Assembly: GCA_025782395.1 (NCBI GenBank)
Contig: JALGZD010000218.1
Coordinates: forward strand, 87,556 to 151,555
Length of the DNA: 64,000 bases
From: a bacterium
GTDB taxonomy: Bacteria > Joyebacterota > Joyebacteria > Joyebacterales > Joyebacteraceae
Reading direction: 5' to 3'
Both the position numbers and the translations under genes were made by a program. Below, one piece after another: positions 40,426 through 63,825 of the stretch (position 1 is its first letter; each line of letters starts with the position of its first letter). Below the pieces are notes generated by a model. That model ran no database searches and was not told the DNA's origin. It was given only the letters and a program-made list of their open reading frames with translations.

Positions 40426-40501
40426 AGAATTCGCGGATCAGACCTACGTGCAGCTTGCCGTCCTAGAATTCGCGGATCAGACCTACGTGCAGCTTGCCGT
40501 C
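40426..40501. repeat. tandem duplication (39-bp period) of the 3' end of the Omp85 gene
   Basis: AGAATTCGCGGATCAGACCTACGTGCAGCTTGCCGTC at 40426-40462 and 40465-40501. On the minus strand both copies encode DGKLHVGLIREF followed by a stop (TGA in the distal copy, TAG in the copy that terminates the gene). Confidence 0.85.
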
Positions 40502-42253
40502 GAGGAGGCTGTCACCCTCACCCAGTCCGTAGTCAATTGCGATTGTACCCAAGCGTGTTTGGCCCCGCAACCCGATTCCGTACCCCAGCTTCGTACCCTT
40601 CGCGAAACCGGGACTCTGCCTGTAGAAGTAACCCGCATCGACGAAAACTATCGCCCTCGAAGTCCGCCCAAGCAGAAAGCGGTACTCGATACTGCCGAGC
40701 GCCACCCGGGAGCCACGGAACTGCTCCTCTCTGTAGCCACGCAGGCTGTTCGCGCCGCCGAGCGTGATCTGTTCGTGGAGCGGTATCTCATCCCGGCTCG
40801 AAGCCATCCCGGTGAGTTCAGCGCGCACGGAGATCACCTGAGCCTCCCGGGTCCGGATCAGGATCTCGCAGTCGATCATCAGTGTGCCTGTCCTGTAATG
40901 TTCCTGGCCCTCCCGCACCTCCTGGTCGCGATACTCGAGTCTTCCACCCACGCGGGCGCCCCGGCGTGGATTCAGCACCTCGTCCCGTGCGTCATATCCA
41001 GCCTCGATGGCCGTTCTGTAACCTTCTGTGGTCGACTCCTCCGGCCCTCCGGGCACATATCGCTCACTGCCGACCGACCAGGTGACAGTCGTGCGCGGGC
41101 CGAAACGCGCCGACACAAAGAGGTCCGCCTCCATTGTCGTGTAGAGCGTATCTCGTATCACCTGCTCGCCGCGGACCCCGACGTTGATCGGCGCGCCGAA
41201 GAGCCACGGTTCCTCGTATCTGAAGGTGATGCGGTCATGTCTGGACTGCAGCCGCTCCCACGACGCTGCCGCTTTCCGACCTGTGCCGGCTATGTTTCCG
41301 AGATATATGTCGACCAGCCCGGTGAACTCCCCCCCACCGTCCGGGGCGGGAGCGTATCCAAGAAGACCGGATACGCTGTTCACAGGACGCTCGGATACGA
41401 CAATGCCCACGGCCGCGCTCCCGGTCGCAGGATCGACCACGACGACCGGCTCCTGAACGTCTGAGAATATCCCGAGTCGCTCAAGCCGGGGACGGACGGC
41501 CTCCAGTATTCGCGCATCGTAGGCCCGTCCGGGGATGATCCCGGTCTCCCGGACAATCACTTCGCCGTGCGTCAGATCATTTCCGGAGAGAAACACCTGT
41601 CCGAAACGAGTGGCCAGGTTCTCGTGGACGCCCAGCTCCAGCGTAGGGCGTTCACCTCTCCGGGCAACCGAGATCCCGGGAGTAACGGCTGCAAAGGGAC
41701 GGCCGGTCGCAGCGTACCAGTCCAGGATCGAGTAGACATCGTCCTCAAGCGACATCAGGCTGAGCACATCTCCAGAACCGAGCTCCATCTGTCGCCTGAC
41801 CGCCGCCTCGTGCACCTCGTCTACACCCGTCAGGCGAACGACGTCCAGCCTGCCATCGGGACCTTCGTCTATCTCCACACGGACCAGAAGACCATCGGGG
41901 CCGTTCATCCAGTCCATCTCCACTCGACCGAATGGACGGCCGCGCATGACGAGCAGCGCGAGGAGCGAATCGGCTCCTGCGCGGGCGTGCGCAATGTCGA
42001 ACACGTCGCCGGGTCCGAGATCGAGCGCCTTCACAGCTTCTCGGCGACTCACGCTCTCGTAGCCTTCGATCTCGACGCGCGCGATCACGATGCTGGTGGA
42101 GGCCTCGACGCCGACGGATGAGTCGGACGCCTCCACATGAGCCCCGAATCCGAGAAGCGAACAAAACAGCGCGGCGACGATCACGCGCCCATACAGCGGG
42201 CGGCGTCTCTCGACCACCGAGTTCAGACTTCCTGCTGTGCTAGAAGAACGCAT
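40463..42253 (-). CDS. Omp85-family outer membrane protein (POTRA repeats plus surface-antigen D15 barrel; TamA/TpsB-sized)
   Basis: 596 aa. Signal peptide. C-terminal beta-signal ...GKLHVGLIREF with terminal Phe. Barrel motif region GANSLRGY. Start overlaps the upstream 1137-aa gene by 14 bp. Confidence 0.7.
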   Translation of the reverse strand: MRSSSTAGSLNSVVERRRPLYGRVIVAALFCSLLGFGAHVEASDSSVGVEASTSIVIARVEIEGYESVSRREAVKALDLGPGDVFDIAHARAGADSLLALLVMRGRPFGRVEMDWMNGPDGLLVRVEIDEGPDGRLDVVRLTGVDEVHEAAVRRQMELGSGDVLSLMSLEDDVYSILDWYAATGRPFAAVTPGISVARRGERPTLELGVHENLATRFGQVFLSGNDLTHGEVIVRETGIIPGRAYDARILEAVRPRLERLGIFSDVQEPVVVVDPATGSAAVGIVVSERPVNSVSGLLGYAPAPDGGGEFTGLVDIYLGNIAGTGRKAAASWERLQSRHDRITFRYEEPWLFGAPINVGVRGEQVIRDTLYTTMEADLFVSARFGPRTTVTWSVGSERYVPGGPEESTTEGYRTAIEAGYDARDEVLNPRRGARVGGRLEYRDQEVREGQEHYRTGTLMIDCEILIRTREAQVISVRAELTGMASSRDEIPLHEQITLGGANSLRGYREEQFRGSRVALGSIEYRFLLGRTSRAIVFVDAGYFYRQSPGFAKGTKLGYGIGLRGQTRLGTIAIDYGLGEGDSLLDGKLHVGLIREF

Positions 42254-45200
42254 TGAGCCTCATGTCGACCGTATGCCTCGCATCGGCATCCGGACGCCTT
42301 TCTCCCGAGTAGGTCACAGTTCCCGTCAGGAACCTGTTGAATCTGTAGTCACCGGAGAGCCTCCATTCAGCCGAAGCTCCGGCTTGCCGTCCATCCGCCA
42401 TGTAGTCCGGCAGCGCTCCGCCTGAGGCTTCCACTCCGGTGCGGGTCAAGCTTGCACTCACGGCACCTCGCCCCTTGAGGCGATAGATCAGCGTCGGCGT
42501 GATCTGCCAGACTCCAACGTCGACGCCGGAGACTGCGTCGCTCTCAACCCCATAGAGCGCAGTCAGCTTGATCTCGGCTCCACCGAGCTGTCTCTTGCCC
42601 ACCTCAGCGAGGACGCAGCGTTCATCCAGATCGTAGTCATTGAGGCTGCCGCCGGCCTCCCGCGCCCTCACGGCAGCGTCTACCTGAACACGATACGCAA
42701 TTCCACCCGGTGGGGAGACCTTGAGTTCAAGAGCCCCGCTCCGCTCCTTCAGTTCCTCCGGAGAGTTGGTGTAGACACGATCCAAGCGGTCACGCGTCTT
42801 GACAGCCAGGCGCGCCGAGAGAACTCCGCTCGTCGCATACCTCACGACGTGGCGTCCCGTCAGCTCCCCGGTGACCGTGTCCTCTCCTCTGAGCACAGAC
42901 GGATCCAGAAGGTAGAGGCGCGTCTTGTCACTGGTCGTCGTAGATTCCCTGAGCTTCAGGCTGCTCTCGAGCGACAGGCCCGTCAGAAAACGCCTCAACG
43001 CGCTGGGATCGGGCGTCCACCGCTCGTCCCGGCGACTGCTCCCGAAGCGAAGCGACCACCTGGTCCCGACAGACAGCTCCGTCACGGGCAGGAAGTTGCC
43101 GGTAGAGACGATGCGCGTCACTTCAACGCCGTCCTCCTCGGTCACGAACCGTTCCTTCTCCTCCACCTCGGTCGCCGTGACCGAGTACTTGAGCTCTCCC
43201 TTGAGGGCGCCGCTCATCGAGCGATGGCCGAGTGTGATGGCGGCGAGATCGTACCTGGTTCCGGACTCCGCGAGACCCTCGGCGACGTCGGTCCGCCTCC
43301 TCATAACATTGCCTTCGACCGTCAGCGCCTCCCAGCGCCTCAGCTGAGCACTCATCTCCTCTGTTCTGGTCGTGGACGATCCAGCCCAGGTCTTTCCATC
43401 CGAGGTCCGTTCAGTGTCCCGGTAGTTGGCCGCAACTCTGAATCCGATCTCGCCGCTCCCGGAGCTCTCTATCGACGCGCCGTGCTCGACGTAGCGTTCT
43501 CCGTCGTTGTCCTCGACACGGGAGTCATGCCTGTAGCTCAAGCCCGGCCGAACAGGCCCGAATGCGTAGCTCGCACCGGCGCGGTAGAACTCTCGTTCCC
43601 TCCGAAGCGAGGAGTCGGCCGAGACCCTGTGCCTCAAGTCAACGAAGCAGCCGCCGGCCCACACACTCCCGTTCTCGAGAGGGCTTGCCAACATGGAGAA
43701 CTCCATTCGATTCGACTCGAGCGCATCAGCGCGCTTGAGAAGGCCTCGAGACAGCTCAATGGCGCCCCCGCCCGGCAGAGAAAGGGCCAGTTCCCCTTCA
43801 CCCAGAACCTCTGCCTCAGGCAGGTCAAGACCCTTGAGCTCCCACGTCTCCTCGTAGCGGACATCTCTGAAGCGACCCACTCCCTCGAAGCTGCCCCCAA
43901 CGCGCCTGCCGACAAAGCCCACGGTGGCCTCAGCTCCGCCGAGGAAGCCGATCCGGACGCCGGGCGTGGAGGCGCGCAGCACGCTCGCGTTTCCCAGATT
44001 GTCGTCGTCATCCAGATCGGAGAAGGTGTTCCGGTCGAAACTTGAGACGGCGGCCTCGGCAGAAACGAATCCGTCCCTTCCGAATTCCCACCGGCCGTCG
44101 AGCGCCGCGACAGCTTTGTCCTGGGGCATGGGGAGTGCCTTGCCCAGACGGAACTCACCTTCATTCTCACCCACGTAGTAGTAGAAACCACCGAGGTAAT
44201 CGAAACCGTATCCGCCGCCGCTGCTCCGTTCAAAACTCAGATCATAGACCCCCGAATCGGCTCCCGCGTATTCGAAGTAACCCTCTTGAGTCAGCGTGTA
44301 GTCCCCGTTGCCGATCCCGAGCGAATCGATGCCGTCATCGTGAGCCAGCTCGATATCGTCTCCCGCCGCCTCGAGGACGGCTATCTGGCCTTCAGTGAGA
44401 GTGGCGGACGCAGCATCTCCGCGGTCGTCCGACTCGCGGAAGAACCCGGCTCCGATGACGAACTCCCCGTCACCCGCAGTGAAGGTCGCTCTTCCCCCAT
44501 AGATGTCTCTGTCGTAATCGCTGGTGGCGTACTCGTAGTCGATGACAATCTCGCTGTCGCTCGTAATGTGCCGGCGCTCAGTGAACTCGATCTCGCCCGC
44601 GGTGTACTCAATTGTGTAGTCGTTGTCCTTTCCCCGCCTGAGCCTCTCCCCGTCGAGCCAGATGCGCTCGCTTCCCGCCACCACCGTTATCCGGGTCGCA
44701 CCACCTCTGTCGGTAAGAAGATAGGGGCCCTGTTTCCCCGCAGTCCCGCGGAATGTCAGGCTTGCGTACTCGCCGTCGGCGCGCGCGCCGGCCAGCACGA
44801 TCGCCGCCCTGCCCACTTCTCCGCTGACCGTCACACCGGACAGATCCCGTCTCACATCCAGGAGGCTCCCTCCGTCTATCTCGAGGATGTAGTCACCCAT
44901 TGTGGCCGCCACGCGCTCGCCCTCGATCTCGACGAGCACCTTGTCGAGCGAACGAAGCTCCTCCGTGTCCCCCTCCGGAATGAGCGGCGTGTTCTGATCT
45001 GAGAGGTAGGCGGTGACGCTCACGTCGCGCGTTATCCTGCCTGAGATGTTGAGTCGCAGCGACTGCTCCAGCCTGAGGTCGCGGTCGGATCCCACCGTGA
45101 TTCCGAAGGTCTTGGCGCCGCCGACTTTGAGGGACGTCGATCTCGTCCCGGCGGCTGAGCCGCCCCCCGTTGCCGCGACGACCATCTCCCCCGGCCCGCC

Positions 45201-45653
45201 CCCATCGGCATCAGGCTGCCTGGCGGCATAGGCCGCCCCCGAGTCGGGTGTCCCTCCGGCCCGCAGGAATAGATCGGGTAGTTGTGCCGACGAGTCGATG
45301 ACCGACCGGCGGTAGACGCCGTGAGCCGGGATGGGATAGTAACGGTAGCGGAGGATGATCAGAGCACTCTCGGAGACAGCGACAGAAAGCGCCAGTTGCC
45401 CGGTCGCGTAATCGATGACGTAGTCGCGTCCGCGTTCTGCCGCCAGCCCGTCAATGAAAAGGGAATCGCTGCCGGCGAAGATAAGCGCGTCCGGAAGAGC
45501 GATACCAAGAACGGCCTCAGCCCCCGAGAACGCAAGTTCCCGTTCACCGCTTACGGCTGAAAGGTGACCGGCACGGACGCCCTGGGCCAACGTCACGAAA
45601 AGAACGAGAGACACAAGAAGCACTGCCGGCGCGGGGCGTCGGGTTCTATTCAT
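42240..45653 (-). CDS. very large secreted beta-rich protein (TamB/AsmA-like or TpsA-like partner of the downstream Omp85), unknown function
   Basis: 1137 aa. N-terminal signal or anchor MNRTRRPAPAVLLVSLVLFVTLAQG. D/G/S/T/Y-rich amphipathic strand pattern throughout. Ends ...RLNAFF. Confidence 0.5.
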   Translation of the reverse strand: MNRTRRPAPAVLLVSLVLFVTLAQGVRAGHLSAVSGERELAFSGAEAVLGIALPDALIFAGSDSLFIDGLAAERGRDYVIDYATGQLALSVAVSESALIILRYRYYPIPAHGVYRRSVIDSSAQLPDLFLRAGGTPDSGAAYAARQPDADGGGPGEMVVAATGGGSAAGTRSTSLKVGGAKTFGITVGSDRDLRLEQSLRLNISGRITRDVSVTAYLSDQNTPLIPEGDTEELRSLDKVLVEIEGERVAATMGDYILEIDGGSLLDVRRDLSGVTVSGEVGRAAIVLAGARADGEYASLTFRGTAGKQGPYLLTDRGGATRITVVAGSERIWLDGERLRRGKDNDYTIEYTAGEIEFTERRHITSDSEIVIDYEYATSDYDRDIYGGRATFTAGDGEFVIGAGFFRESDDRGDAASATLTEGQIAVLEAAGDDIELAHDDGIDSLGIGNGDYTLTQEGYFEYAGADSGVYDLSFERSSGGGYGFDYLGGFYYYVGENEGEFRLGKALPMPQDKAVAALDGRWEFGRDGFVSAEAAVSSFDRNTFSDLDDDDNLGNASVLRASTPGVRIGFLGGAEATVGFVGRRVGGSFEGVGRFRDVRYEETWELKGLDLPEAEVLGEGELALSLPGGGAIELSRGLLKRADALESNRMEFSMLASPLENGSVWAGGCFVDLRHRVSADSSLRREREFYRAGASYAFGPVRPGLSYRHDSRVEDNDGERYVEHGASIESSGSGEIGFRVAANYRDTERTSDGKTWAGSSTTRTEEMSAQLRRWEALTVEGNVMRRRTDVAEGLAESGTRYDLAAITLGHRSMSGALKGELKYSVTATEVEEKERFVTEEDGVEVTRIVSTGNFLPVTELSVGTRWSLRFGSSRRDERWTPDPSALRRFLTGLSLESSLKLRESTTTSDKTRLYLLDPSVLRGEDTVTGELTGRHVVRYATSGVLSARLAVKTRDRLDRVYTNSPEELKERSGALELKVSPPGGIAYRVQVDAAVRAREAGGSLNDYDLDERCVLAEVGKRQLGGAEIKLTALYGVESDAVSGVDVGVWQITPTLIYRLKGRGAVSASLTRTGVEASGGALPDYMADGRQAGASAEWRLSGDYRFNRFLTGTVTYSGERRPDADARHTVDMRLNAFF

Positions 45654-45656: not shown

Positions 45657-46610
45657 TTACTCACAGGCGCCGTAGACAAGATCGACGATGATCAGGCGAC
45701 CGGCGACGCGGTCGAGCACGAGCAGGCGGCCATTTCCGTCGATCGCCAGGCCCACCGGCTCAACGGCCGGGGGTAGCCCGCTTCCCTCAATCGCGACCGC
45801 CGTTATCAGCCGATTCCTCGCGCTGAACGCCACAATGCGGCGTCCCTTGGGATCAGCGGCGATAAGATTGCCGTAGGTATCGAATGCGAGAGCGCACGGG
45901 TGGAAGCCGTCTCCCGGCAGCGCGACCTCACAGAGCTCAGAGCCGAATTCATCAAAGACGTGCACAACACCCGCCCCGGGATCAGAGACGGCAATCTGCC
46001 TGGATGGTCCCATGGCGACGTCACACGGCGACACCAACTCACCCACTCCACCTCCGAAGCCACCGAGCGGCTCGAGGGTCTCTGCAAACTGCGAGTAGAC
46101 GATCACGGCCTGCTTGTCCTCATCGACGATAAGAAGCTCGCCTCCACTCCCTATCGCAATGCCGATCGGGGTGCCGGTCTCATCTTCGTCGACGATCCGA
46201 TCAAGGTAGTTGCCGCGTTCGTCGAAACGCTCCACGCGCCTGTTCCCTTCATCGAGAACGTAGATGTAGAAGCCGGGATAGACGGCCAGATCCGTCGGGG
46301 TGTCGAACTGACCCTCATCCCAACCGTACCCTCCAAACTCCACGACAAGGTCGCCCGTTTCTGTGATGATCAGAACACGGTTATTACCCGAGTCCGCAAT
46401 CAGCATGTCTCCACGATGGTCGACGGCAAGCGATTGTGGAGAATCGAGACCCCACTCTCCGCTCCCCGGCACCTCACCGGCAAGTTCGAACGCAGTTATA
46501 GAGCGAGTATCGCCGACTGTCGCCAAGACGTCGACATCGGAGGAAGAGACGCTGCCGGCAGCGGCAAGGAGGCAACCGACGGCAAGCGCGCATGTCTTGA
46601 AACCTTGCAT
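45657..46610 (-). CDS. secreted NHL-repeat beta-propeller protein
   Basis: 317 aa. Signal peptide. Repeated ...SPQSLAVDHRGDMLIADSGNNRV... / ...PIGIAIGSGGELLIVD... / ...SPCDVAMGPSRQIAVSDPGAGVV... blades. Confidence 0.65.
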   Translation of the reverse strand: MQGFKTCALAVGCLLAAAGSVSSSDVDVLATVGDTRSITAFELAGEVPGSGEWGLDSPQSLAVDHRGDMLIADSGNNRVLIITETGDLVVEFGGYGWDEGQFDTPTDLAVYPGFYIYVLDEGNRRVERFDERGNYLDRIVDEDETGTPIGIAIGSGGELLIVDEDKQAVIVYSQFAETLEPLGGFGGGVGELVSPCDVAMGPSRQIAVSDPGAGVVHVFDEFGSELCEVALPGDGFHPCALAFDTYGNLIAADPKGRRIVAFSARNRLITAVAIEGSGLPPAVEPVGLAIDGNGRLLVLDRVAGRLIIVDLVYGACE

Positions 46611-46681
46611 GAGCCCTCCACTCCGAGTGAACGTGGGGATTCGTGGGGAGGGACAGAAGGGGAAGTGGATCGGGCAGGATG

Positions 46682-47557
46682 CTAGAACGACATCTCGAGC
46701 GTCACCCGGCTGCCCGGAGATCCGTCATCGTCTACGACGGGCGCAACGAAGAGCCTGGCGTGTGGCTCGTTCTTGAGGCCCTGGTTGTGCCGACGCGCCA
46801 TCCAGGCGCTGTCGATGCTGCTTATCGCGCGATTCAGGATCGCGAGCCCGATCATGTGGAACGCGTTCTTGCGCGAAAGCGATGCGCTGTGGCGAAGATC
46901 CAGGTACTCGGAGAACCGTCCGCTACTCTCCCATTCCCAACCTGCGTCCCCAAAGTAGCCGTGTTGTGCGAAGTACTCACTCTGGGCATCCAGGTCATCT
47001 GGATAGAGACTGCGCGCCTCGCTCCTGATCCCCTCATTGTAGCTGTCCTCACCCTCGCTGCGGATGTAGTCGGCGATGTCCCGATAGTACTCACTCGTCG
47101 AGCCTCTGGGCACACCGGCGAAGATGGAGGCGAATTCCTTGTAGTCGTCCTCGCGCATACTCCCCTGGATCTCGAACGAAGCGTACCCAACCCAGATGGC
47201 GCCCTCGGCAGCCATGAAGGCCTTTCCACGACCATCGTTCCCCGTGTACATCTCCCCCCAGCCGGGTAAAACCATGGACATGAGCAGAGCGACCATCGGA
47301 TTCTTCATATCTGTGCCGGACTCTGACGCGGGAACTCTCCTGCCTCTCCCACTCGAGCTGAAATCAGCCGTGCTTCCGATCTCATTCAGGGAGAGCCCGT
47401 CCATCTCGAGTTCCACGCGCGCGCCGTACGCATGCGGAAGATCAGTGGTCACTACGGCCGACGCGGCTCCGGGTAGAAGATCAGCGGTGAGTACGGCCGA
47501 TGCGGCTCCGGGTATGAGCACGGCCATGGCCAAGAGAGCTGTAACGGTGCGATTCAT
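46682..47557 (-). CDS. secreted hypothetical protein, paralog A (shares PG.GE hydrophobic-helix motif and C-terminal region with 47569-48414)
   Basis: 291 aa. Signal peptide. Internal 13-aa tandem duplication IPGAASAVLTADL/LPGAASAVVTTDL. Motif LLMSMVLPGWGEMYTGNDGRGKAFMAAEGAIWVGYASFE. Confidence 0.5.
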   Translation of the reverse strand: MNRTVTALLAMAVLIPGAASAVLTADLLPGAASAVVTTDLPHAYGARVELEMDGLSLNEIGSTADFSSSGRGRRVPASESGTDMKNPMVALLMSMVLPGWGEMYTGNDGRGKAFMAAEGAIWVGYASFEIQGSMREDDYKEFASIFAGVPRGSTSEYYRDIADYIRSEGEDSYNEGIRSEARSLYPDDLDAQSEYFAQHGYFGDAGWEWESSGRFSEYLDLRHSASLSRKNAFHMIGLAILNRAISSIDSAWMARRHNQGLKNEPHARLFVAPVVDDDGSPGSRVTLEMSF

Positions 47558-47568
47558 GCGCCACCCCG

Positions 47569-48414
47569 TCAGTAGGTTGTCACGAAAGCCACACTGAGAC
47601 CGGCCGCACCGCAGGGCACCCCGAATTCGATACCCACTTGAGCGGCAGCCGCGTCATTCTCAGTCCCGTGTCCTCCGGCAAGAATGAACGAGTCCACGGC
47701 GCTCACGACGTGATTCAACAGCGCGGCCATCATGAGATACCGCGCCTGTCTGAGAGACGTGTTGCTGTCCTTCCGCATCCCCCAGTACTCGTTGCGGAGT
47801 TCCAGGGCCTCAGCGGTCGGATCGTTCGGAACGCCGTCACCGCCCCACCACGGCCAGTAGACGTCGTACTTGCCTATATCTTCGTAGAACTCCTGTGATC
47901 CGCAGTCGGCCAGCGGCCTGCATCCATTGGCGTAGTCGTGGGGGCAATCGAGGCAGTTCTCGTTGTAGAACTCCATGTAGCCCTCGAGATCCCAGTTGGC
48001 ATCTGCGAATGATTCATAGTCGCTGCGTTCTTCCAGACCCTGCTTGTCCAGGACATAGAACCCGCTCCACATGGCGATCTCGGCGAGAAGAAAAAGGTAA
48101 CCCCGCTTCTTGCCCTGCACGAGTTCGCCGCTACCGGGGACCGCGAGCGACATGAGAAGCATCTTTGAAGGATCGTGCCCCGACTCGGCGAAGGCCACGT
48201 CGGATCCACCGCTCGACAGGAACTCGGCTCTGGCATCGAGTGAGGAGATCAGCGCCAGATCCGGCCGTGCGGCCGTTCCGTTCGGCACGGCGGCCACACC
48301 GAAAGCCACTGGCGCCAGTGCCGCGATCACGGCGCACACGACAGCGAGCCTGATCACAGGTTCTGATGCAAATCTCACCACATCCACCAAACCAGCCTCC
48401 GTCGGAACCGACAC
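47569..48414 (-). CDS. secreted hypothetical protein, paralog B
   Basis: 281 aa. LLMSLAVPGSGELVQGKKRGYLFLLAEIAMWSGFYV aligns with paralog A. C-terminal ...LRQARYLMMAALLNHVVSAVDSFILAGGH aligns with A's ...LSRKNAFHMIGLAILNRAISSIDSAWMARRH. Confidence 0.5.
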   Translation of the reverse strand: MSVPTEAGLVDVVRFASEPVIRLAVVCAVIAALAPVAFGVAAVPNGTAARPDLALISSLDARAEFLSSGGSDVAFAESGHDPSKMLLMSLAVPGSGELVQGKKRGYLFLLAEIAMWSGFYVLDKQGLEERSDYESFADANWDLEGYMEFYNENCLDCPHDYANGCRPLADCGSQEFYEDIGKYDVYWPWWGGDGVPNDPTAEALELRNEYWGMRKDSNTSLRQARYLMMAALLNHVVSAVDSFILAGGHGTENDAAAAQVGIEFGVPCGAAGLSVAFVTTY

Positions 48415-48426: not shown

Positions 48427-51400
48427 CTAACGAACGACGGCGACCTTCATGATCCTCTGTTCGGTCCGCTCCCTCTGACGCATTTCCCCCATCGGCGTCG
48501 GAAGAACCACGCGCGCCTCAACACGCACCAGGTAGAGCCCACCGGCAACAGAAGAGATGTCCCAGACAAACTCGTTCACCGTCGGGACGCCATCCATCTC
48601 CACACTCTCGATGACCTGCCCCGTCACATCCAGCATCTCGATACTGAGCTCCGCCGCCTCCTCGAGATAGACACGAACCGTGAGATCCGAAGCCATCGCT
48701 GGATTCGGGTAGCAGTAGGTTCGCTCGAGAGCCATGAGCGTCTCTGTTTCATCGTACGCACCGAGAAGAAGCGAATCAGCGTAGCAGCCGGTGCCCGCGG
48801 CGTTTCCGGCCTCGGTCGACCAGACGATTGTTTCATTGGAGCACTCGTACGGCATCCGGTAGAAGAGGATCCGCCCGCTGCTACCCGCGACCAGAACATC
48901 CAGTTCTCCGTCGTTGTCCGCGTCCCCGATCCACGGCGTTCCGAGCGAGACATCAGATGAGAGAGGCCAGCCTTCCAGCATCTTCCCCGTCACACCGTCC
49001 CACGCGAACAGACTACCGCCCGGACCTCCGATGATCACATCTGTAATCCCGTCGGAGTTGATATCACCGACGAGTGGCGAGGACGGAGTGGAACGCAGGC
49101 TGTCGCCCGCGGAGAACCCCAGGGGCCAGTTCTCAACGGCGGTCCCGTTCATCCTGATGCCGGTCACGCTGCGTCTGCCGGTCGGAACAAGCACCTCAAG
49201 ATAGCCATCGCCATCGATATCTCCGAGAGAGACCCGCCCGATGATCTCGGCGCCCACGTCGACGGGCCAACCGGGAAGCTCGTTGCCGCCCGAGTCCCAT
49301 GCGTAGACGACCCCATCTGATCCTGCCGCTATTACCTCTGTACGACCGTCCGCAGCGTGGTCTATGTCACCTATCACGATGCCGGAGGTCTCCTGAAGCC
49401 ACGAGTCCACGATGACGGGCCATCCGGGAAGCGGAGTCCCATCCAAACGAATGGCCGCGATCCAACCTCTGTTGGTGGTCGAAGTCATCAGCTCGTCTGC
49501 CCCGTCTCCATCGAGATCGCCCGCGGCCAGCGTCACGTCGTCCAGAACAAGATGGCCAAACGAGTACGGCGACGAACCGAGATGATGGCCTGTCGCGTCT
49601 ACTATCGTGATGTACCCTCCACGAGACACGGCTGCTATTTCGAGTCCACCGCCGGCTTCGAACTGTGCTGCGAGAGGAGCTCCGCTGGCGGGGCCGCCTA
49701 TATTCAGGGGGAAGTTGTCGGACACGAGGTCGGCGATCCCGTCGCCGCGATCGTCCCGTCCGTACCAGGCGTACAGGAGACCGTTGTCGGACGCGACGAT
49801 CACCTCGGCCGCACCGTCGCCATCCAGATCCGCAAGGGCCGGCGCATGCGAGACGCCCCCGGAGGCCGCGGCGATGAATCCGAACGGTCCCGCGCAATCA
49901 GGCATCACCGGCGATCCGTCGGCGTGCCACGCGTAGACGGCTCCATCCGTTGTTGCCACCACGATCTCCATCTCGCCGTCACCATCGATATCCGCGACGC
50001 GCGGCGTCAACTCGTCGACCGCGTCCTCGAGCTCTATGGGCCATCCGTCCTTCCATCGATCGAAGTGTATCGATGCCGTCATGGTCGAGTCCGGATTCGA
50101 GATACCGCTGATCGAGAGGTAGCTTTTCCCGCCAAGATTGTCGTCTGTAGAAGGGAACGTGTCCCAGGAGAACGTCCCGTTGTTGTCGGCGAAGAACGGA
50201 TCGTATCTGCTGCCGGCCCAGTAGAAACTCGAGATGTTGCCAAGGTCCATGATCCCGTCGGCCTCCTCAACGGCGACGCCGAGTCGATGGCGATCGGCAT
50301 TGACCCGGTTGTACGGAAGCAGTCCGGGGGTCACGCGGGTGTCGTCCACGTGGTAGATGAGAAGCCCGGGGCCGGGGAGCAGAAAATCGTACTCATGATT
50401 GACGGGACATACGGGGTCATCGCAACCGGGATCGACCGGACCCAGCACCACACCTCTCTCCTGCTCGATGACAACGAGGTTGTCTTTGCCAATGTCATCC
50501 ATGCGGTTTTCGAGAAGGAAGTACTCAGTGCTCGTGATCGGGATCTTGAAGAGCCTGGCGCCACCGCTTCTGAGAACGGAAGCCTTGATGGTAATCTCCT
50601 CCATATCCTCAGCAATTATGACGGGATCAGTCCAGCCGAGATACTGGAGCGACCAGCCGCAGGGCGGAACCGGAATGAGACCGTATGCCCACCCCCACGG
50701 CGTGTTCATACCGATCCGTCCGCCGGAATCCATAAGTCCCCAGTAACCGATTGCGGGAAAGAAGTTGGAGGTATTGTACAGGTCGGACAGCCCGAGGACG
50801 TGACCTACTTCGTGGGCAAGCGTCCCGTTCAGAACGATGGTGAGCCCGTCCTGACTCGACGTCTCCGGCATAATCGCCGAGCCCCAGATCTCGTGCGCGC
50901 CATCGTTCACGAGGATCGGCTCGCCCAGCGCGATGTGCGCCGAGGGAAGATCGTACGGCGAGTTCAGATATACATCGCTCTGCCAGTCAGCACCTGCGTG
51001 GAAGACCACGTACCCGTCGTACGCAGCGAAGTCTATGCTGTCTGTCGTATCGGCGGCAGCGAAAGCGTCGCGTATGAACGATTCCACCTGGCTTACGTAC
51101 CAGACTTGTTCTTCCGAGTAGTCGTGGTAGTAACCCATGTCGTGCGGCAGCACGTATGCCTGATTGGATTCGGCCGGAACGACAGTGAACTCGAGATCGA
51201 GTGCGCCGTGTGAGACCGATCCGTAGTAGTTCTTGAGCGCCGTCATGTGAAGCTCGAAGTACTCCAGGTCGTGCGGCGGTCCATCGAACGTTGCCCCGTC
51301 CCACTCGGAGTAGTCGAAGGTCCCGTCTCCTGTGCTCAGCGGGTCGGAGTCGGGCTGGAACTGCACCCGGATGGCCAGAAGGCGCACGAGCGTCCGGTCG

Positions 51401-51621
51401 CCATTGCCACGCTCTCTCGCACGAGCCAGTTCTATCGCGCTCACGCGGGCCGGCTGACTCGGATAGTACCTGGACGTCACCGCCTGGAGCTCCTCCGGGG
51501 CGGCCTCGCCGCTCTTGCTGCAGATCAGCGTGGACGCCGCGCCGGCAGGGAACGCGGTCACAAGCAATATCACAACCAGAACAGCTGCACCCAATCTCAT
51601 TCCGTCCTCCACCGATCTCAT
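48427..51621 (-). CDS. secreted zinc metalloprotease (M6/immune-inhibitor-A-like HEXXH) with FG-GAP repeats and T9SS-type C-terminal sorting domain
   Basis: 1064 aa. LAHEVGHVLGLSDLY. At least six DxDGDG...VY.W FG-GAP-like repeats. C-terminal ~90 aa YPNPA...LSIEMLDVTGQVI...GGLYLVRVEA matches the Por-secretion C-terminal domain pattern. Confidence 0.65.
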   Translation of the reverse strand: MRSVEDGMRLGAAVLVVILLVTAFPAGAASTLICSKSGEAAPEELQAVTSRYYPSQPARVSAIELARARERGNGDRTLVRLLAIRVQFQPDSDPLSTGDGTFDYSEWDGATFDGPPHDLEYFELHMTALKNYYGSVSHGALDLEFTVVPAESNQAYVLPHDMGYYHDYSEEQVWYVSQVESFIRDAFAAADTTDSIDFAAYDGYVVFHAGADWQSDVYLNSPYDLPSAHIALGEPILVNDGAHEIWGSAIMPETSSQDGLTIVLNGTLAHEVGHVLGLSDLYNTSNFFPAIGYWGLMDSGGRIGMNTPWGWAYGLIPVPPCGWSLQYLGWTDPVIIAEDMEEITIKASVLRSGGARLFKIPITSTEYFLLENRMDDIGKDNLVVIEQERGVVLGPVDPGCDDPVCPVNHEYDFLLPGPGLLIYHVDDTRVTPGLLPYNRVNADRHRLGVAVEEADGIMDLGNISSFYWAGSRYDPFFADNNGTFSWDTFPSTDDNLGGKSYLSISGISNPDSTMTASIHFDRWKDGWPIELEDAVDELTPRVADIDGDGEMEIVVATTDGAVYAWHADGSPVMPDCAGPFGFIAAASGGVSHAPALADLDGDGAAEVIVASDNGLLYAWYGRDDRGDGIADLVSDNFPLNIGGPASGAPLAAQFEAGGGLEIAAVSRGGYITIVDATGHHLGSSPYSFGHLVLDDVTLAAGDLDGDGADELMTSTTNRGWIAAIRLDGTPLPGWPVIVDSWLQETSGIVIGDIDHAADGRTEVIAAGSDGVVYAWDSGGNELPGWPVDVGAEIIGRVSLGDIDGDGYLEVLVPTGRRSVTGIRMNGTAVENWPLGFSAGDSLRSTPSSPLVGDINSDGITDVIIGGPGGSLFAWDGVTGKMLEGWPLSSDVSLGTPWIGDADNDGELDVLVAGSSGRILFYRMPYECSNETIVWSTEAGNAAGTGCYADSLLLGAYDETETLMALERTYCYPNPAMASDLTVRVYLEEAAELSIEMLDVTGQVIESVEMDGVPTVNEFVWDISSVAGGLYLVRVEARVVLPTPMGEMRQRERTEQRIMKVAVVR

Positions 51622-51713: not shown

Positions 51714-52697
51714 TCAGAATGCGGCAGTCAGTGAGAACCTGAAGGGACGTTTGAGCCCTTCAGCCTGCGGCACATTCGCGATGTCGAATGCGAAGTCCCG
51801 ATACTTGAGCCCCATCCCGAAGGCGAAATCCTTCACTTCTCCGTCCTCATCGTACACGTAGCCCGCGCGTAGGCTCAGGAGGTCGAAGTACCGGTACTCC
51901 GCGCCAAGATTGAGAATGACGCCTGTGGACTGATCCATGATGTCCTCGATGATGACAAGCGACTTGTTGTAGTCACCGCACACCATCACCTTGTTCATCT
52001 CATCCGAGATGACCATGTAGGAAACACCGAGCTTCAGATTCCGGGGGAGAGGATCCGACTGTTCCTCGTCGATGTATGCGATTCTCGGTCCGACATGCTG
52101 AATCGCTCCTCCCAGCCTCAGTCTGCCGTCCCACAATCTGTAGAGCGCGCCGATGTCCGCCGCGAACGTCGTCCCCGCTCCCTTCTGCTGATCCTGCGTG
52201 TACTGAGCGGGAGCGAGATTGACGTAGACGAATTTGAGATTGAGGCCCAGCGCCAGATTATCGGTCAGGAGAGTGCCATAGGCCACCGACGGTATGACCT
52301 CGTAGGAACTGAATGTGCCGATTGGGTCCGGGCTGTCCGGATCCGTGGCTATCTGCTCACCGTACGTGAGATAGACAAGAGACGCCCCGACAGTACCCAG
52401 GCCCTCGATGCGCTGCGCGTACGCCGCGTACTCATAATAGACATCGTCCCAGTCCGGGACCAGCTGCGTGTGCATGAGCGTGACGTTGAACTCAGCTCCG
52501 ATGAATGCGAGTCCGGCAGGATTCCACGAGACGGCACTTGCATCCTCCGCCACGGCTGCAAAGCAATCGCCCATACCGGCCGGCCTGGCGCCCGGCTGGA
52601 TGTAAAGCGACTGAGCTCCGCCGATCGACACCTGCGCGTGTGCCGGTGCCACGATCGCAACTGCCAGCAGCGTCAGAAGCATTCCTGTTCTCAGCAT
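51714..52697 (-). CDS. FadL-fold outer-membrane beta-barrel, PorV/PorQ/PorP-like
   Basis: 327 aa. Signal peptide. GARPAGMGDCFAAVAEDASAVSWNPAGLAF N-terminal motif typical of FadL/PorV-like barrels. Ends ...SLTAAF. Confidence 0.45.
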   Translation of the reverse strand: MLRTGMLLTLLAVAIVAPAHAQVSIGGAQSLYIQPGARPAGMGDCFAAVAEDASAVSWNPAGLAFIGAEFNVTLMHTQLVPDWDDVYYEYAAYAQRIEGLGTVGASLVYLTYGEQIATDPDSPDPIGTFSSYEVIPSVAYGTLLTDNLALGLNLKFVYVNLAPAQYTQDQQKGAGTTFAADIGALYRLWDGRLRLGGAIQHVGPRIAYIDEEQSDPLPRNLKLGVSYMVISDEMNKVMVCGDYNKSLVIIEDIMDQSTGVILNLGAEYRYFDLLSLRAGYVYDEDGEVKDFAFGMGLKYRDFAFDIANVPQAEGLKRPFRFSLTAAF

Positions 52698-52730: not shown

Positions 52731-55700
52731 TCATCTCATGATGACGGCTCTGCCGATCGCCTCGGCCTTGTCGCCACGGTAGCTCCTGGAGACGGCGGAA
52801 ACTCTGTACAGATAAACTCCGTTGGCCGGCTCGTCTCCTACGTGATCCCGACCGTCCCAGAAAACCTGATTGGCTCCTGCGGTCGCATCGATGTCGTCCA
52901 GCGTGACGATTCTCCTGCCTCCCACCGTGAAGATATCGATCCTGACGTCCGCGTCCACCGGCAGCTGGAAGAGGATATAAGTACCCTCTCTCCCCGCGTC
53001 AGGGAACGGATTCGGGTGGTTGGCAACATTCCGTATCTCGAAATCGGCAGCCGAGATCACTTCGAACCAGAGGTTCTCGCTCTGCCTGTTGCCGACGTTG
53101 TCGCTCGCCGAGAGCGAGAGCGAATGGCCGCCCAGTGGCATTGATGGAAGATCGTACTCGAACGAACCCCCGCGAAAATCCCCAAGGTCGCAGATGAAAT
53201 CACCGGTCAGATCGGTCGAATCGCTGCTGTCGATCTGAAGGATGATGCCACGTCCACCGCCCTCGGTCGCCAGGTTGATTCCGCTCTCGTCAAAGAGCGA
53301 GATCGCCATGGTTGCACTCGGCAGAACCGAGGCCCCACCACCCTCGAATTCGAGAGCGATATCCGGGCCGGTGTGGTCCGAGACTTCCACCGAATCCATG
53401 AGTGCCACGTTCTCCAACGAGAAAGCCCCATCAGTACCGCTGCCGTAGGCGTACACCCGGACTCTCCCGTATGGACCCTCGCGCGCCGCAGTCGAAACGA
53501 CGAACTCCGTAGACAGATCACCGTCCAAGACCGCGACCGGTCCCCGGAAGATCGTCTCTCCCGGAAGCGAGTAGTCAACGTGATATCCGCTCGACTCCTG
53601 TGTGTACCCGGTCGTGTCTGCGCTCTCCGAGACACGAATGAGCGCGACCCCGTCCAGACTCTCGATAGCACCCGTGCCCTCACCTTCGACTTCGATCCTC
53701 GAGCCACGCTTCATCGGGTCGAGGTCGTCGGAGACGAGAACACCGCCTCCTACGGGCGCTGCCAAGGTCAGGCCCGGATCGCCCAGCACAACGAACTTCG
53801 AGTTGTTCCACCATGCAGACAGGCTGCCCCACATTGAAAACGCCGTCTGGAACGCACACCCTACGTCCATCACAGCTTCAGGACTTGTCTGCTGGTATCC
53901 AAAGATGGCCCTGAGGAAGTCGCGGTTGAAATTGGCATTCTGGTTGGCCCCTGAGTCCCGCGTGCTTCCGATGGAGATGATGGAACCTCCTATCGCGGAT
54001 TTCGCCAGGGCCTCACCCAGGGAATCGACGGTCTCATGGTCGAACTTATTCAGCCTGCACGAAGCGGCGAAGAAAAGAGGAAGAGTATCGATGTTGTTCA
54101 GAAGTGAGACGTCATCAAACAGTAAGACGGACTCATGAGCAATGACGATCTCACTGCCGTGGCCCGTGTAGTTCAGAAGGAGGGCGCCCCCGTTCCAGGC
54201 GTCGATGACGTCGGCCCGGGCGGCAGGCTTCATCGTGCCCACTTTCTCATATTCCATGAGATAAATCTTGCGCCGATCCAGAGGGAAGGGCAGCACATCA
54301 GTGGCTATCTGCTCCGTCTGCACGGTGTGCAACCACTCGGTGGAGCCGTCCACCGTGTACTCATCGTCGCCCAGGAGAATGGCTGTGTTCTTCCAGAGGC
54401 CCGGCTGCTCTGCCAGCTCGTAGCGCTCAATCTTGTCCACCATCGTCGCCGCTTCCGTGACCGTGTCAACGGACAGGCGTCCGAGAGCGATGTTCATGTC
54501 ACACCGGACAGTGTCCTCGAAGCAAACGTACCAGACGTCGGCCGGCCAGTACCAGGGCGAGAATGATGTGGCGAATCGGAGCATGTGGTGCACAGGAATG
54601 TACGTCGGGAGACTTGATGAAGCGTACCCGCGGGAATCGGACGTCCCGTCGCCGATCAGGACTGCGTGTGTGGGCGGTACAGCCTCATTCTCCCAGGTGA
54701 ACTTGAAGTAGTCCCTGATGGCGGCCGCATCTACGATGCCCCACGAGAATTCGTCGTAGATGTCGGACACCTTCACCAGGCGGACGTCGAAGCTGCCTCC
54801 ACTCGCGCTCTCCCTGATGTTCTTCAATCGGACGGCATCATCGTAGAACATGTCGTGAACAACCATGAGGTAGTCGTGCCCGCCCGGTGTTCTCAGGTCC
54901 CCGAACTCATCCAGCTCCAGCGACGGCGTCAAGTACGCTGCGGATGAGATCGCCGCATACGATGCCGTATCTGCGGCATCGTCCTGAAACACAATAGCGT
55001 TGTCCCTGCCTGCGGTCCCATGTGAAACGCCCGGTATCGTCCGAACGGTGAACTTGTTCATGATCTTGTAGACCATGACATCCGGATTCTGAAATCCGGT
55101 GACCGTGTGTTCCACAATCCCTGTCCTGCCGGAGCTTCCGAAGAAGACGCGATCGTTGGTCGCAATCAGGTTTCTCCAGTACGTGATATCGAACCAGTCA
55201 ATGTATATCGACTCGTCGGTCGCCCCGGGGATATCTCGCGGAAGGTAGATCTCAAGCGTGTTGTAGCCTTCATTGATGGAGAGGCTGTCGGCTTCGAATC
55301 TCATGTCCCCATAGGCATTCCCGTAGGCCTCGTACGCCTCTTCTCCGTTCAGAGAGAAGATGACATGGTGATCCGGATTGCAGGGGAAAGAGCTGTTGCC
55401 GTAGACGCTCGCCGCGAGACATCCGAGCGAGTCGGTCCTGACGTGGCTCAACTGCTCGTGAAAGTAGCGACGACTCTCGCTCTTCGTCATCTCGTGCCAG
55501 AACCAGTTGTCGGACCGCCCCTGACGCGTGAGGATGTTGCGCTCGAAATGCGTACGCACTCTGTGGGCATCAGCCAGGATCGGCGTTGGTGAATTCTGCA
55601 GGTCGTCTTCTTCCATACGGAGAGGATCGGCACTGAATCCCGACGGCGCACCCTGGTTCTCCCACGTCAGCCAGTAGACATTCTCGTTCGCGAAGCGGTT

Positions 55701-63809: not shown

Positions 63810-63825
63810 CACCCGCGGACAAAGA

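What the first reader, a model, noticed from the sequence alone, without database searches (positions are those of the whole stretch)
45657..48414. Secreted NHL propeller plus two tandem paralogous secreted proteins of unknown family inside the protease/Omp85 gene run
The two roughly 285-aa paralogs share three things:
- a signal peptide;
- a Pro-Gly-x-Gly-Glu hydrophobic hairpin (LLMSMVLPGWGEMY / LLMSLAVPGSGELV), loosely reminiscent of DUF5683/TM2-type helical hairpins (recall only, not searched);
- a conserved C-terminal block.

Paralog A also carries a 13-aa internal tandem duplication, so the region is actively duplicating. All genes from 48427 down to 40463 are co-oriented with tiny gaps (8-70 bp), so they probably form one transcript together with the M6 protease and the Omp85 pair. 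Their function in that unit is unknown.
Basis: partly seen in the sequence, partly recalled or inferred. Interest (0 to 1): 0.5.

Follow-up and report, generated by a model that had tools for sequence, protein, structure and literature searches.

The report
Paired unknown proteins in secretion-system operon
The two look-alike proteins are an ancient, always-paired set of exported proteins from an uncharacterised family (DUF5683-like), and in many little-studied bacterial phyla they sit right after a metalloprotease inside a type IX secretion (PorU-PorV) gene cluster, which makes them candidate new parts of that secretion machinery.

Summary
Three minus-strand ORFs fill 45657-48414: an NHL propeller, paralog A (291 aa) and paralog B (281 aa). 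A and B are 29% identical (E=3e-18). A carries a 39-nt x2 tandem duplication.

Directly upstream lie PorU (the T9SS sortase, above NCBIfam's cutoff), a PorV-family barrel, and an M6-like HExxH protease with a T9SS C-terminal sorting domain.

A and B are divergent members of the DUF5683 superfamily. They score below Pfam's threshold themselves, but their orthologs and 34 of 55 distant relatives hit PF18935.

The B-then-A pair is ancient. Among 80 species genomes (Eisenbacteria, Zixibacteria, Ignavibacteria, KSB1, Latescibacterota, Caldithrix):
- A follows B in 74/75 loci.
- The M6-like gene lies within 4 kb in 61/64.
- PorV lies upstream in 49/51.

The pair always follows a gene of about 1000 aa with an HExxH motif. 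Where M6 has lost HExxH (23 loci), a second HExxH protease gene is inserted before B.

The AF2 models are confident and show a signal peptide, a disordered linker, a long alpha-helical hairpin and a C-terminal beta-hairpin ending in F/Y. The internal helices are not hydrophobic enough to be transmembrane. No solved structure matches.

Best reading: a periplasmic or outer-membrane-anchored heteromeric accessory of a T9SS PorV/protease module. The mechanism is inferred, not shown.

The parts
52731..56762 (-). PorU, the T9SS sortase (C25 peptidase family, 1343 aa). First gene of the conserved module.
   Evidence: NF033707 535.8 bits (cutoff 420); Pfam Peptidase_C25 255 bits plus Propeptide_C25. 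Found upstream of the pair in 30/47 loci with enough flank.
51714..52697 (-). PorV/PorQ-family outer-membrane barrel (327 aa). Ends ...LTAAF.
   Evidence: NF033709 237.9 bits (cutoff 90); Pfam PorV 92 bits. Found upstream of the pair in 49/51 loci.
48427..51621 (-). M6-like HExxH (HEVGH) metalloprotease with FG-GAP propeller repeats and a T9SS type A C-terminal sorting domain (1064 aa).
   Evidence: NF052323 390.7 bits (below cutoff 600); TIGR03296 88.8 bits; FG-GAP_3 73.9 bits; Por_Secre_tail 28.3 bits (cutoff 27). Directly upstream of B in 48/75 loci and within 4 kb in 61/64. HExxH present in 47 of 69 orthologs; 21 of the 22 without it are loci with the inserted protease gene and the other is the fragmented L003. 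All 23 loci with the insert lack HExxH in M6.
47569..48414 (-). Paralog B (281 aa), the B-type DUF5683-superfamily protein. Layout: signal peptide, linker, PGSGE helix-hairpin, QEFYEDIGKY middle region, long C-terminal helix, beta-hairpin ending in Y.
   Evidence: AF2 pLDDT 79, pTM 0.68. Pfam DUF6677 18.2 bits, below threshold. Shine-Dalgarno sequence overlaps the M6 stop codon.
46682..47557 (-). Paralog A (291 aa), the A-type DUF5683-superfamily protein. Layout: signal peptide, disordered linker, PGWGE helix-hairpin, helical middle region, long C-terminal helix, beta-hairpin ending in F.
   Evidence: AF2 pLDDT 75, about 90 on average across residues 80-260 with dips near 165 and 205. Pfam DUF5683 17.3 bits against cutoff 26.7. 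Orthologs are flagged PF18935.
47437..47514 (-). 39-nt x2 tandem duplication (13 aa, PGAASAV[LV]T[AT]DL[LP]) spanning the signal-peptide cleavage region and linker of paralog A.
   Evidence: TRF score 128, 89% matches. Absent from P0002 and P0004. P0003 and P0005 carry a different 13-aa repeat at the same place.
45657..46610 (-). Exported NHL-repeat beta-propeller (317 aa), possibly a lipoprotein (LAVG|C). First gene of the second sub-module.
   Evidence: Pfam NHL 56.1 bits; N-terminus. Found downstream of the pair in 41/65 loci. Only 3 nt before the next gene.
42240..45653 (-). 1137-aa exported protein with no Pfam family. It has a short SprA-like segment and a C-terminal ...NAFF. Probable large outer-membrane protein.
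   Evidence: No Pfam hit. TIGR04189 SprA 29.4 bits on residues 322-408, and 13/14 orthologs hit it, best E=6e-12. C-terminal F nearly invariant. No PDB sequence match. Present in 27/43 loci.
40463..42253 (-). Omp85/BamA-family protein with POTRA domains (596 aa). Overlaps the preceding gene by 14 nt.
   Evidence: Pfam Omp85 75.8 bits and POTRA 65.9 bits; TIGR03303 110.9 bits, below cutoff. Present in 27/43 loci.

Best explanation
Paralogs B and A are an ancient, obligately paired set of Sec-exported proteins of the DUF5683 superfamily with no recognisable enzyme features. They belong to a conserved type IX secretion gene module found in FCB-group phyla outside the Bacteroidota: PorU, PorV, an M6-like protease carrying a T9SS sorting domain, then B and A. 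In Eisenbacteria, Zixibacteria and Ignavibacteria a second sub-module follows: an NHL propeller, a large outer-membrane protein with a SprA-like motif, and an Omp85 protein.

Shown:
- the paralogy;
- the export signal;
- that the internal helices are not hydrophobic enough to be transmembrane;
- the long alpha-helical hairpin plus a C-terminal two-stranded beta-hairpin ending in an aromatic residue;
- the near-invariant gene order;
- that the pair always directly follows a gene of about 1000 aa with an HExxH motif.

Inferred: B and A are made together with that protease and form a heteromer on the periplasmic side of the outer membrane. The C-terminal beta-hairpin would serve as a membrane or barrel anchor, or as an oligomerisation element, with the helical hairpin projecting into the periplasm. 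In this reading the pair acts as a scaffold or holdase that docks, holds or controls the PorV-associated protease or cargo before PorU-dependent sorting. This is comparable in kind, though not in sequence, to the helical Skp-like and TPR proteins that form the periplasmic part of the Flavobacterium T9SS translocon.
For: Paralogy and pairing:
- A against B: E=3e-18.
- B-type and A-type genes are both present, in the same order, in distant lineages.
- A is adjacent to B in 74/75 loci from different GTDB species.

T9SS identity of the neighbours:
- PorU scores 535.8 against a cutoff of 420.
- The PorV family model scores 237.9 against a cutoff of 90.
- Por_Secre_tail is detected on the protease.

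Linkage:
- M6-like gene within 4 kb in 61/64 loci, PorV in 49/51, PorU in 30/47.
- The same order appears in independent look-ups.

Protease coupling:
- M6 has HExxH in 47 of the 69 orthologs scanned, essentially those where it abuts B.
- In all 23 loci with the inserted gene, M6 lacks HExxH and the inserted gene of about 1000 aa before B has one.
- The M6-like protein of one such locus passes NCBIfam's model 'T9SS-dependent M6-like inactivated metalloprotease' (618 against 600).
- The Shine-Dalgarno sequence of B overlaps the protease stop codon, and the B-A gap is 11 nt.

Structure and location:
- AF2 models of both paralogs give the same architecture: pLDDT about 90 on average in A's core and above 90 in B's, but lower in the beta-hairpins (about 50-85 in A, about 55 in B).
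- The C-terminal residue is aromatic in 54/56 and 46/55 family members, as for PorV, the 1137-aa protein and Omp85 in the same run.
- The internal helices have a Hessa sum with medians of +6.7 to +9.2 kcal/mol, and none of 142 members falls below 1.0.

Precedent: a helical Skp homolog and a TPR protein are structural parts of the T9SS translocon (PMC10994853).
Against: - No experiment and no direct interaction evidence exists. No heteromer model could be computed.
- The DUF5683 superfamily is very large (4396 clusters at 50% identity with E<=1e-3). From my own recollection, not tested here, it also occurs in Bacteroidota in non-T9SS contexts, so the family's basic role may be more general.
- The 80 loci analysed were the best matches to the B-type motif, so they sample one subfamily only.
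- A two-stranded hairpin cannot make a barrel on its own, and its pLDDT is only about 55-83.
- The invariant polar residues (S94, E118, N242, S246, D249, R222) could mark a ligand or catalytic site that this scaffold model does not explain.
- Whether these genomes have the core T9SS (SprA, PorKLMN) was not tested.
Confidence: 0.5

Rival explanations
1. A and B are general cell-envelope proteins, reflecting a generic role of the DUF5683 superfamily in outer-membrane or peptidoglycan organisation. Their position next to PorV and the protease would be conserved operon inheritance among outer-membrane genes, not a T9SS-specific function.
For: - The family is very large: 4396 representative clusters, 493 of them at E<=1e-30.
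- There is no T9SS sorting domain on A or B, and no curated T9SS model hits them.
- An Omp85 gene sits in the same run.
- From recollection, not tested: DUF5683 genes in Bacteroides lie near parB and a lytic transglycosylase.
Against: - Adjacency to the T9SS-dependent protease and PorV persists across phylum-level divergence (about 20-25% identity) and through gene insertion and gene fusion. Drift alone seldom preserves this.
- The Omp85 sub-module is dispensable (27/43), whereas PorV and M6 are nearly constant (49/51, 61/64).
Confidence: 0.2
2. A and B are dedicated periplasmic partners of the metalloprotease, acting as an inhibitor, a maturation chaperone or an 'immunity' pair. They would keep the protease inactive or export-competent before T9SS transport, and would have no role in the secretion machinery itself.
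For: - B and A always directly follow the gene that carries an intact HExxH. That gene is M6 in the loci without the insert, and the inserted protease in all 23 loci where M6 has lost the motif.
- Start and stop signals overlap with the protease gene.
- The proteins are exported, not hydrophobic enough to span a membrane, and lack recognisable catalytic domains.
Against: - Known periplasmic metalloprotease inhibitors are small single-domain beta proteins (from general knowledge), unlike a conserved pair of about 30-kDa helical proteins.
- The strict outer-membrane-protein-like C-terminal aromatic residue is unexplained by a soluble inhibitor.
- The inactive M6-like gene is still retained next to PorV in the loci with the insert, which suggests a structural complex rather than simple enzyme control.
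Confidence: 0.17
3. A and B are inner-membrane proteins. In this view the PGxG[EQ] hairpin and the C-terminal helix are transmembrane segments of the TM2 or DUF6677 type, and the N-terminal segment is a signal anchor.
For: - The hairpin motif resembles helix-hairpin families, with sub-threshold Pfam hits to DUF5683 and DUF6677.
- Basic residues flank the helices.
Against: - The Hessa sum for all three internal helices is far from insertion-competent: medians +6.7 to +9.2 kcal/mol, and 0/142 below 1.0.
- The helices are 36-48 residues long and pair as a coiled-coil hairpin in the models.
- The C-terminal strand ends in an aromatic residue, as in outer-membrane proteins.
Confidence: 0.06

Closest known systems
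Pfam DUF5683 (PF18935), with the related DUF6677 (PF20382)
   Same: - Signal peptide followed by a helix-hairpin with the S-x3-P-G-x-G-[QE] motif.
- Orthologs of A at 51-61% identity are already flagged PF18935.
- 34 of 55 diverse relatives hit PF18935 at E<=0.01.
- No function is known for the family. The only paper mentioning it is irrelevant.
   Different: - The window's proteins score below Pfam's gathering thresholds: A 17.3 against 26.7 for DUF5683, and B 18.2 against 24.3 for DUF6677.
- The Pfam match covers only the N-terminal hairpin region (residues 84-152).
- These proteins form a fixed B-then-A gene pair linked to PorV and a T9SS protease. Neither Pfam nor NCBIfam records this.
T9SS attachment complex PorU-PorV-PorZ-PorQ of Porphyromonas gingivalis
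   Same: - The porU and porV genes are adjacent.
- A surface protein with beta-propeller repeats and a T9SS C-terminal domain sits next to a PorV-type barrel. Here that is M6/FG-GAP, and PorZ in P. gingivalis.
- Several outer-membrane partners are encoded together.
   Different: - No PorZ or PorQ equivalog was found. PorQ scores 74.7 bits against a cutoff of 220.
- The described complex has no counterpart to A and B, the NHL protein, the 1137-aa protein or a dedicated Omp85.
- The organisms are not Bacteroidota.
SkpA/SprE periplasmic 'dish' of the Flavobacterium johnsoniae Extended Translocon (PMC10994853)
   Same: Non-enzymatic periplasmic proteins built from long alpha-helical hairpins plus small beta elements serve as structural parts of a T9SS outer-membrane complex. 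A and B have the same general build.
   Different: - No sequence or significant fold match to Skp/OmpH.
- A and B are a heteropair.
- Their association with any translocon is untested.
NCBIfam NF052323, 'T9SS-dependent M6-like inactivated metalloprotease'
   Same: The gene upstream of B belongs to this lineage: 390.7 bits here, and 618 bits (passing the cutoff) for its counterpart in L004.
   Different: - The window's protein keeps HEVGH, so it is probably active.
- NCBIfam has no model for the downstream A and B pair.

Membership tests
Pfam DUF5683 (PF18935) | Score at or above the Pfam gathering threshold (26.7 bits) | tested here: not met
   A scores 17.3 bits (E=0.005). B has no DUF5683 hit, only DUF6677 at 18.2 bits against a cutoff of 24.3.
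Pfam DUF5683 (PF18935) | Homology to bona fide members (transitive, superfamily level) | tested here: met
   Orthologs P0056, P0066, P0074, P0079, P0085-87 and P0089 carry precomputed PF18935. 34/55 relatives from the profile search hit PF18935, best E=3.3e-9.
Pfam DUF5683 (PF18935) | N-terminal signal peptide followed by the S-x3-P-G-x-G-[QE] helix-hairpin | tested here: met
   S94, P98, G99 and G101 are invariant in 56 sequences. Helices 87-96, 100-104 and 108-147 appear in the model.
T9SS-associated component (accessory of the PorU/PorV module) | Conserved gene neighbourhood with porU/porV and a protein carrying a T9SS sorting domain, across distant lineages | tested here: met
   PorV upstream 49/51; M6-like within 4 kb 61/64; PorU 30/47. 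Also.
T9SS-associated component (accessory of the PorU/PorV module) | Co-occurrence with core T9SS genes (SprA/Sov, PorK/L/M/N) genome-wide | not tested
   Only 20-kb loci and this 64-kb window were available. None of the 18 other window ORFs scanned is a T9SS gene, and five had no family hit.
T9SS-associated component (accessory of the PorU/PorV module) | Physical or genetic requirement for secretion or sorting | not testable with these tools
   Needs experiments.
T9SS cargo | C-terminal type A or type B sorting domain | tested here: not met
   No Por_Secre_tail/TIGR04183 hit on A, B or the NHL protein at E<=1. The C-terminus is a 2-strand hairpin.
Outer-membrane beta-barrel protein | C-terminal beta-signal (terminal aromatic residue, alternating hydrophobic residues) | tested here: met
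   Terminal F/Y/W in 54/56 and 46/55 members. Endings are ...VTLEMSF and ...VAFVTTY.
Outer-membrane beta-barrel protein | A closed barrel of at least 8 strands in the monomer | tested here: not met
   Only two strands are predicted in each paralog.
TM2-like / inner-membrane helical hairpin | Helices hydrophobic enough for Sec-mediated membrane insertion | tested here: not met
   Hessa-scale sums have medians of +6.7 to +9.2 kcal/mol, and 0/142 fall below 1.0.
Skp/OmpH chaperones | Sequence or fold match to OmpH/Skp | tested here: not met
NHL-repeat beta-propeller (for 45657-46610) | Pfam NHL repeats above threshold | tested here: met
   56.1 bits against cutoff 20, in three stretches.
Omp85 (for the claimed 'Omp85 pair') | Omp85 barrel domain plus POTRA | tested here: not met
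   Met only by the 596-aa protein (Omp85 75.8 bits, POTRA 65.9 bits). The 1137-aa protein has no Pfam hit.
SprA/Sov translocon (for the 1137-aa protein) | TIGR04189 at or above 200 bits, full-length match | tested here: not met
   29.4 bits over about 85 residues. 13/14 orthologs share this local hit. The profile does not find SprA in the PDB.

The most novel reading that the evidence does not exclude
The eight genes PorU, PorV, M6-like protease, B, A, NHL, the 1137-aa SprA-motif protein and Omp85 may encode a compact outer-membrane secretion and sorting apparatus that has not been described, used by non-Bacteroidota FCB phyla. In this reading the 1137-aa protein is a half-size analogue of the SprA translocon, assembled by its own Omp85. 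B and A form a hetero-oligomer whose C-terminal hairpins join into a small composite barrel or extend a partner barrel. Their helical hairpins would form the periplasmic entry or 'dish'. That would make B and A new core components of T9SS-like machinery.
Probability: 0.2. Interest if true: 0.8.

Novelty: new variant of a known kind. Interest (0 to 1): 0.6.

Why it matters
T9SS biology comes almost entirely from Bacteroidota such as Porphyromonas and Flavobacterium.

This work shows a conserved five- to eight-gene PorU/PorV module in Eisenbacteria, Zixibacteria, Ignavibacteria, KSB1, Latescibacterota and Calditrichota-type genomes. It contains two always-paired proteins that no database names and no searchable paper discusses. 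That gives concrete candidates for new accessory or core parts of the system.

It also gives a first functional context to a branch of the large DUF5683 family.

The complementary pattern is a testable clue to what the pair does. Where M6 is active it abuts the pair. Where M6 is inactive, a second active protease is inserted, and the pair then follows that one.

If the larger reading is right, it would show how T9SS-type sorting works without the full Bacteroidota parts list.

Tried and rejected
- Fold search of the AlphaFold database: the library was unavailable.
- Foldseek of model B against the PDB found nothing with E<1. The top rows were PorM/GldM periplasmic domains at E=1.1-2.0, probability 0.02-0.06. 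I treat these as chance.
- PDB sequence-profile searches for the A/B family and for the 1137-aa protein found nothing meaningful.
- NCBIfam has no model for A or B, in this window or in two distant loci.
- Literature: 'DUF5683' appears in one irrelevant paper. Nothing turned up for T9SS plus Eisenbacteria, or for T9SS in the other candidate phyla. The 'PorU2/PorV2' hits were not informative.
The B-type-only alignment A5 worked.
- The exact-sequence look-up of the window's B protein found no record. Cluster look-up gave only 'hypothetical protein' names.
- Rejected, 'transmembrane hairpin': the hydrophobicity is too low.
- Rejected, 'actively duplicating locus': the duplication is ancient.
- Rejected, 'Omp85 pair'.
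- Rejected, 'T9SS cargo': no sorting domain.
- A structure prediction for the 1137-aa protein was not attempted.


Full report
**What is at the coordinates**

The interval 45657-48414 holds exactly three minus-strand ORFs:
- an NHL-repeat protein, 45657-46610, 317 aa (Pfam NHL 56 bits);
- paralog A, 46682-47557, 291 aa;
- paralog B, 47569-48414, 281 aa.

A and B align over nearly their full length at 29% identity, E=3e-18. The quoted motifs and the shared C-terminal block are present. TRF confirms a 39-nt x2.0 tandem duplication at 47437-47514, which gives the 13-aa repeat in A. B starts at a GTG whose AGGAGG ribosome-binding site overlaps the stop codon of the upstream protease gene. A starts 11 nt after B's stop.

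The co-oriented run reads as follows:
- PorU, 52731-56762. NCBIfam 'T9SS sortase PorU' scores 535.8 bits against a cutoff of 420. Peptidase_C25 also hits.
- A PorV/PorQ-family barrel, 51714-52697. NF033709 scores 237.9 bits against a cutoff of 90.
- An M6-like metalloprotease, 48427-51621. It has HEVGH, FG-GAP propeller repeats and a T9SS type A sorting domain. It scores 390.7 bits against NF052323, 'T9SS-dependent M6-like inactivated metalloprotease', below the cutoff of 600.
- B, then A, then the NHL protein.
- A 1137-aa protein with no Pfam family, 42240-45653.
- One Omp85/POTRA protein, 40463-42253.

DNA ligase, ThiC and DinG follow. The 'Omp85 pair' is thus one Omp85 plus an unrelated large protein. 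Thirteen of 14 orthologs of that large protein share a local segment of about 85 residues with the SprA model (best E=6e-12, far below the cutoff). Its C-terminal F is nearly invariant. The gaps are 33, 92, 12, 11, 71, 3 and -14 nt. Terminator-like and promoter-like sites are no more frequent than in shuffled sequence, and none lies in an intergenic gap on the coding strand. An operon is plausible but not shown.

**Family**

Pfam gives only sub-threshold hits: A to DUF5683 at 17.3 bits against 26.7, and B to DUF6677 at 18.2 bits against 24.3. However:
- About 100 orthologs of A and 48 of B exist in metagenomes and in Eisenbacteria genomes assembled from metagenomes. Several A orthologs are already flagged PF18935.
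- A profile of both families finds 4396 representative clusters at E<=1e-3, of which 493 are at E<=1e-30.
- Of 55 diverse relatives, 34 hit PF18935.

No function is attached to the family. NCBIfam has no model for these proteins, every source calls them 'hypothetical protein', and the only paper that mentions DUF5683 is irrelevant.

**The duplication is ancient and the pair is fixed**

In every lineage examined, the first gene is B-type, with a Q-x-YYE-x-IGKY middle region. The second is A-type, with an AG[VI]...D-x-YN middle region. A scan of one genome per GTDB species with a B-type alignment found 503 genomes encoding a relative. The best 80 loci come from Eisenbacteria (28), Zixibacteria (8), Ignavibacteria (6), KSB1 (5), Latescibacterota (5), Caldithrix, Zhuqueibacterota and unnamed metagenome-assembled genomes.

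I built HMMs of the module proteins and searched the six-frame ORFs of these loci. Each count is taken over the loci with enough flanking sequence:

| Feature | Loci |
|---|---|
| A adjacent to B | 74/75 |
| M6-like gene directly upstream | 48/75 |
| M6-like gene within 4 kb | 61/64 |
| PorV upstream | 49/51 |
| PorU upstream | 30/47 |
| NHL downstream | 41/65 |
| 1137-aa protein downstream | 27/43 |
| Omp85 downstream | 27/43 |

Independent exact-protein look-ups show the same order. The 13-aa repeat, in contrast, is specific to the window's lineage. Relatives at 76-78% identity lack it. Two others carry a different 13-aa repeat at the same place, inside a linker that AF2 predicts to be disordered. 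'Actively duplicating' is therefore not supported for the paralogs.

**Two architectures and a protease rule**

Type 1 is found in Eisenbacteria (including this window), Zixibacteria and Ignavibacteria. Its order is PorU, PorV (often fused to an N-terminal extension of about 500 aa), M6, B, A, NHL, the 1137-aa protein, Omp85. Here M6 carries HExxH.

Type 2 is found in KSB1, Latescibacterota, Caldithrix and Zhuqueibacterota. Its order is PorV, M6-like, a gene of about 1000 aa, B, A. In all 23 such loci the M6-like protein lacks HExxH and the inserted gene has a single HExxH. In L004 the M6-like protein passes NCBIfam's 'inactivated' model (618 against 600). The inserted protein there shows Peptidase_MA_2 and TolB-like propeller features.

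B and A therefore always directly follow a gene with an intact HExxH motif. The inactive M6-like gene is kept next to PorV.

**Structure and likely location**

AF2 models built with family alignments are confident across the conserved core of both paralogs. For A, mean pLDDT is 75 overall and about 90 on average across residues 80-260, with dips near residues 165 and 205. For B, mean pLDDT is 79 and pTM 0.68. Both show the same layout:
- a signal-peptide helix;
- a disordered linker of about 55 residues;
- two short helices around the PGxGE motif;
- a helix of 36-40 residues;
- a small helical tip;
- a helix of 47-48 residues running back;
- a C-terminal two-stranded beta-hairpin.

**Interpretation**

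Shown:
- an ancient, fixed B-then-A pair of exported DUF5683-superfamily proteins whose internal helices are not transmembrane-grade;
- the pair is embedded in a conserved T9SS PorU/PorV/protease module, directly after that module's protease gene with an intact HExxH motif.

Inferred: the pair forms a heteromer on the periplasmic side of the outer membrane. The C-terminal hairpin would be an anchor or oligomerisation element, and the helical hairpin a periplasmic arm that docks, holds or controls the PorV-associated protease or cargo. A precedent in kind is the Flavobacterium Extended Translocon, where a Skp homolog and the TPR protein SprE are structural periplasmic parts (PMC10994853). There is no sequence or fold evidence that A and B are related to them.

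The NHL propeller belongs to a second, separable sub-module (NHL, the 1137-aa protein, Omp85). That sub-module is absent from type 2 loci, and the 71-nt A|NHL gap is the natural boundary.

**Rivals**

- A generic envelope role of the DUF5683 superfamily. The family is huge, and the 80 loci sample only the B-type subfamily.
- A protease-specific inhibitor or chaperone pair. This fits the protease rule but not the outer-membrane-protein-like C-terminus.
- Inner-membrane hairpin proteins. This is contradicted by the hydrophobicity.

Genome-wide co-occurrence with core T9SS genes, any protein-protein interaction, and localisation were not testable here.

**Verdict**

It is partly wrong: the locus is not actively duplicating, there is no Omp85 pair, and the T9SS context was missed. 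The pair is a divergent branch of a known but uncharacterised family in a newly recognised, strongly conserved T9SS-linked arrangement. I rate it a new variant of a known kind, of moderate to good interest as a source of candidate T9SS components outside the Bacteroidota.

Noticed in passing
L004-L005, L033, L036, L049, L052-L053, L059, L061, L064-L069, L072, L075, L077-L080, L086-L087 (genes between the M6-like gene and B): In all 23 loci where the M6-like protein has lost HExxH, a gene of about 1000 aa with a single HExxH is inserted just before B. In L004 it shows Peptidase_MA_2, a TolB-like propeller and a TamA-like C-terminal stretch. Where M6 keeps HExxH there is no insert. This looks like displacement of the catalytic function while the inactive scaffold is kept.
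   Followed up: partly
L006:3044-5617, L007:3185-5764, L008:2422-4986; also L038, L043, L045, L048, L055, L058, L074, L081, L083: In Zixibacteria and Ignavibacteria the PorV-family barrel is fused to an N-terminal extension of about 500 aa. The extension has faint Reg_prop, LysM and PorZ-like hits, which may mean a PorZ-like propeller fused to its barrel anchor.
   Followed up: no
window 42240-45653: The 1137-aa protein contains a repeated DY-x-IDY-x-x-G-x-I-x-F type motif (near residues 70 and 345). The segment at residues 322-408 hits the SprA model in 13/14 orthologs. It also hits the phage tail tube model in 8/14 and the distal tail protein model in 6/14. This is a shared small domain rather than barrel homology.
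   Followed up: partly
window 47437-47514, and proteins P0003/P0005: Independent 13-aa tandem repeats have arisen at the same position in different lineages, just after the signal peptide of the A-type protein. In the window the repeat duplicates the A-S-A cleavage motif.
   Followed up: partly
window 63864-63980 (-): A 5S rRNA gene (95.6 bits) overlaps the 5' end of the 295-aa ORF at 63023-63910, which has no family hit. That ORF is probably shorter than listed, or spurious. The window contains no tRNA genes.
   Followed up: no
window 8594-9991 (-), 26490-29066 (-), 58723-59466 (-): Three sizeable ORFs (465, 858 and 247 aa) have no family hit at the thresholds used: NCBIfam at E<=1e-5 for the first two, and Pfam and NCBIfam at E<=0.01 for the 247-aa ORF. 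The other window ORFs scanned are housekeeping: NuoF-like, 2-oxoacid:ferredoxin oxidoreductase, succinyl-CoA ligase, DprA, a sigma-54 two-component pair, HutU/HutI, DinG, ThiC, LigA, AccA and DnaE.
   Followed up: no
L003 (ENA contig_24556, 2.2 Mb): The same module is present, but PorU, PorV, M6, the 1137-aa gene and Omp85 are each split into several ORFs. This pattern is typical of indel errors in a long-read assembly rather than real pseudogenes.
   Followed up: no
window 45657-46610, N-terminus: The NHL protein's signal peptide contains a lipobox-like LAVG|C. Orthologs also have a Cys near the end of the hydrophobic region (L001 ...LFVC, L006 ...LVLC). It may be a lipoprotein rather than a soluble periplasmic protein.
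   Followed up: partly
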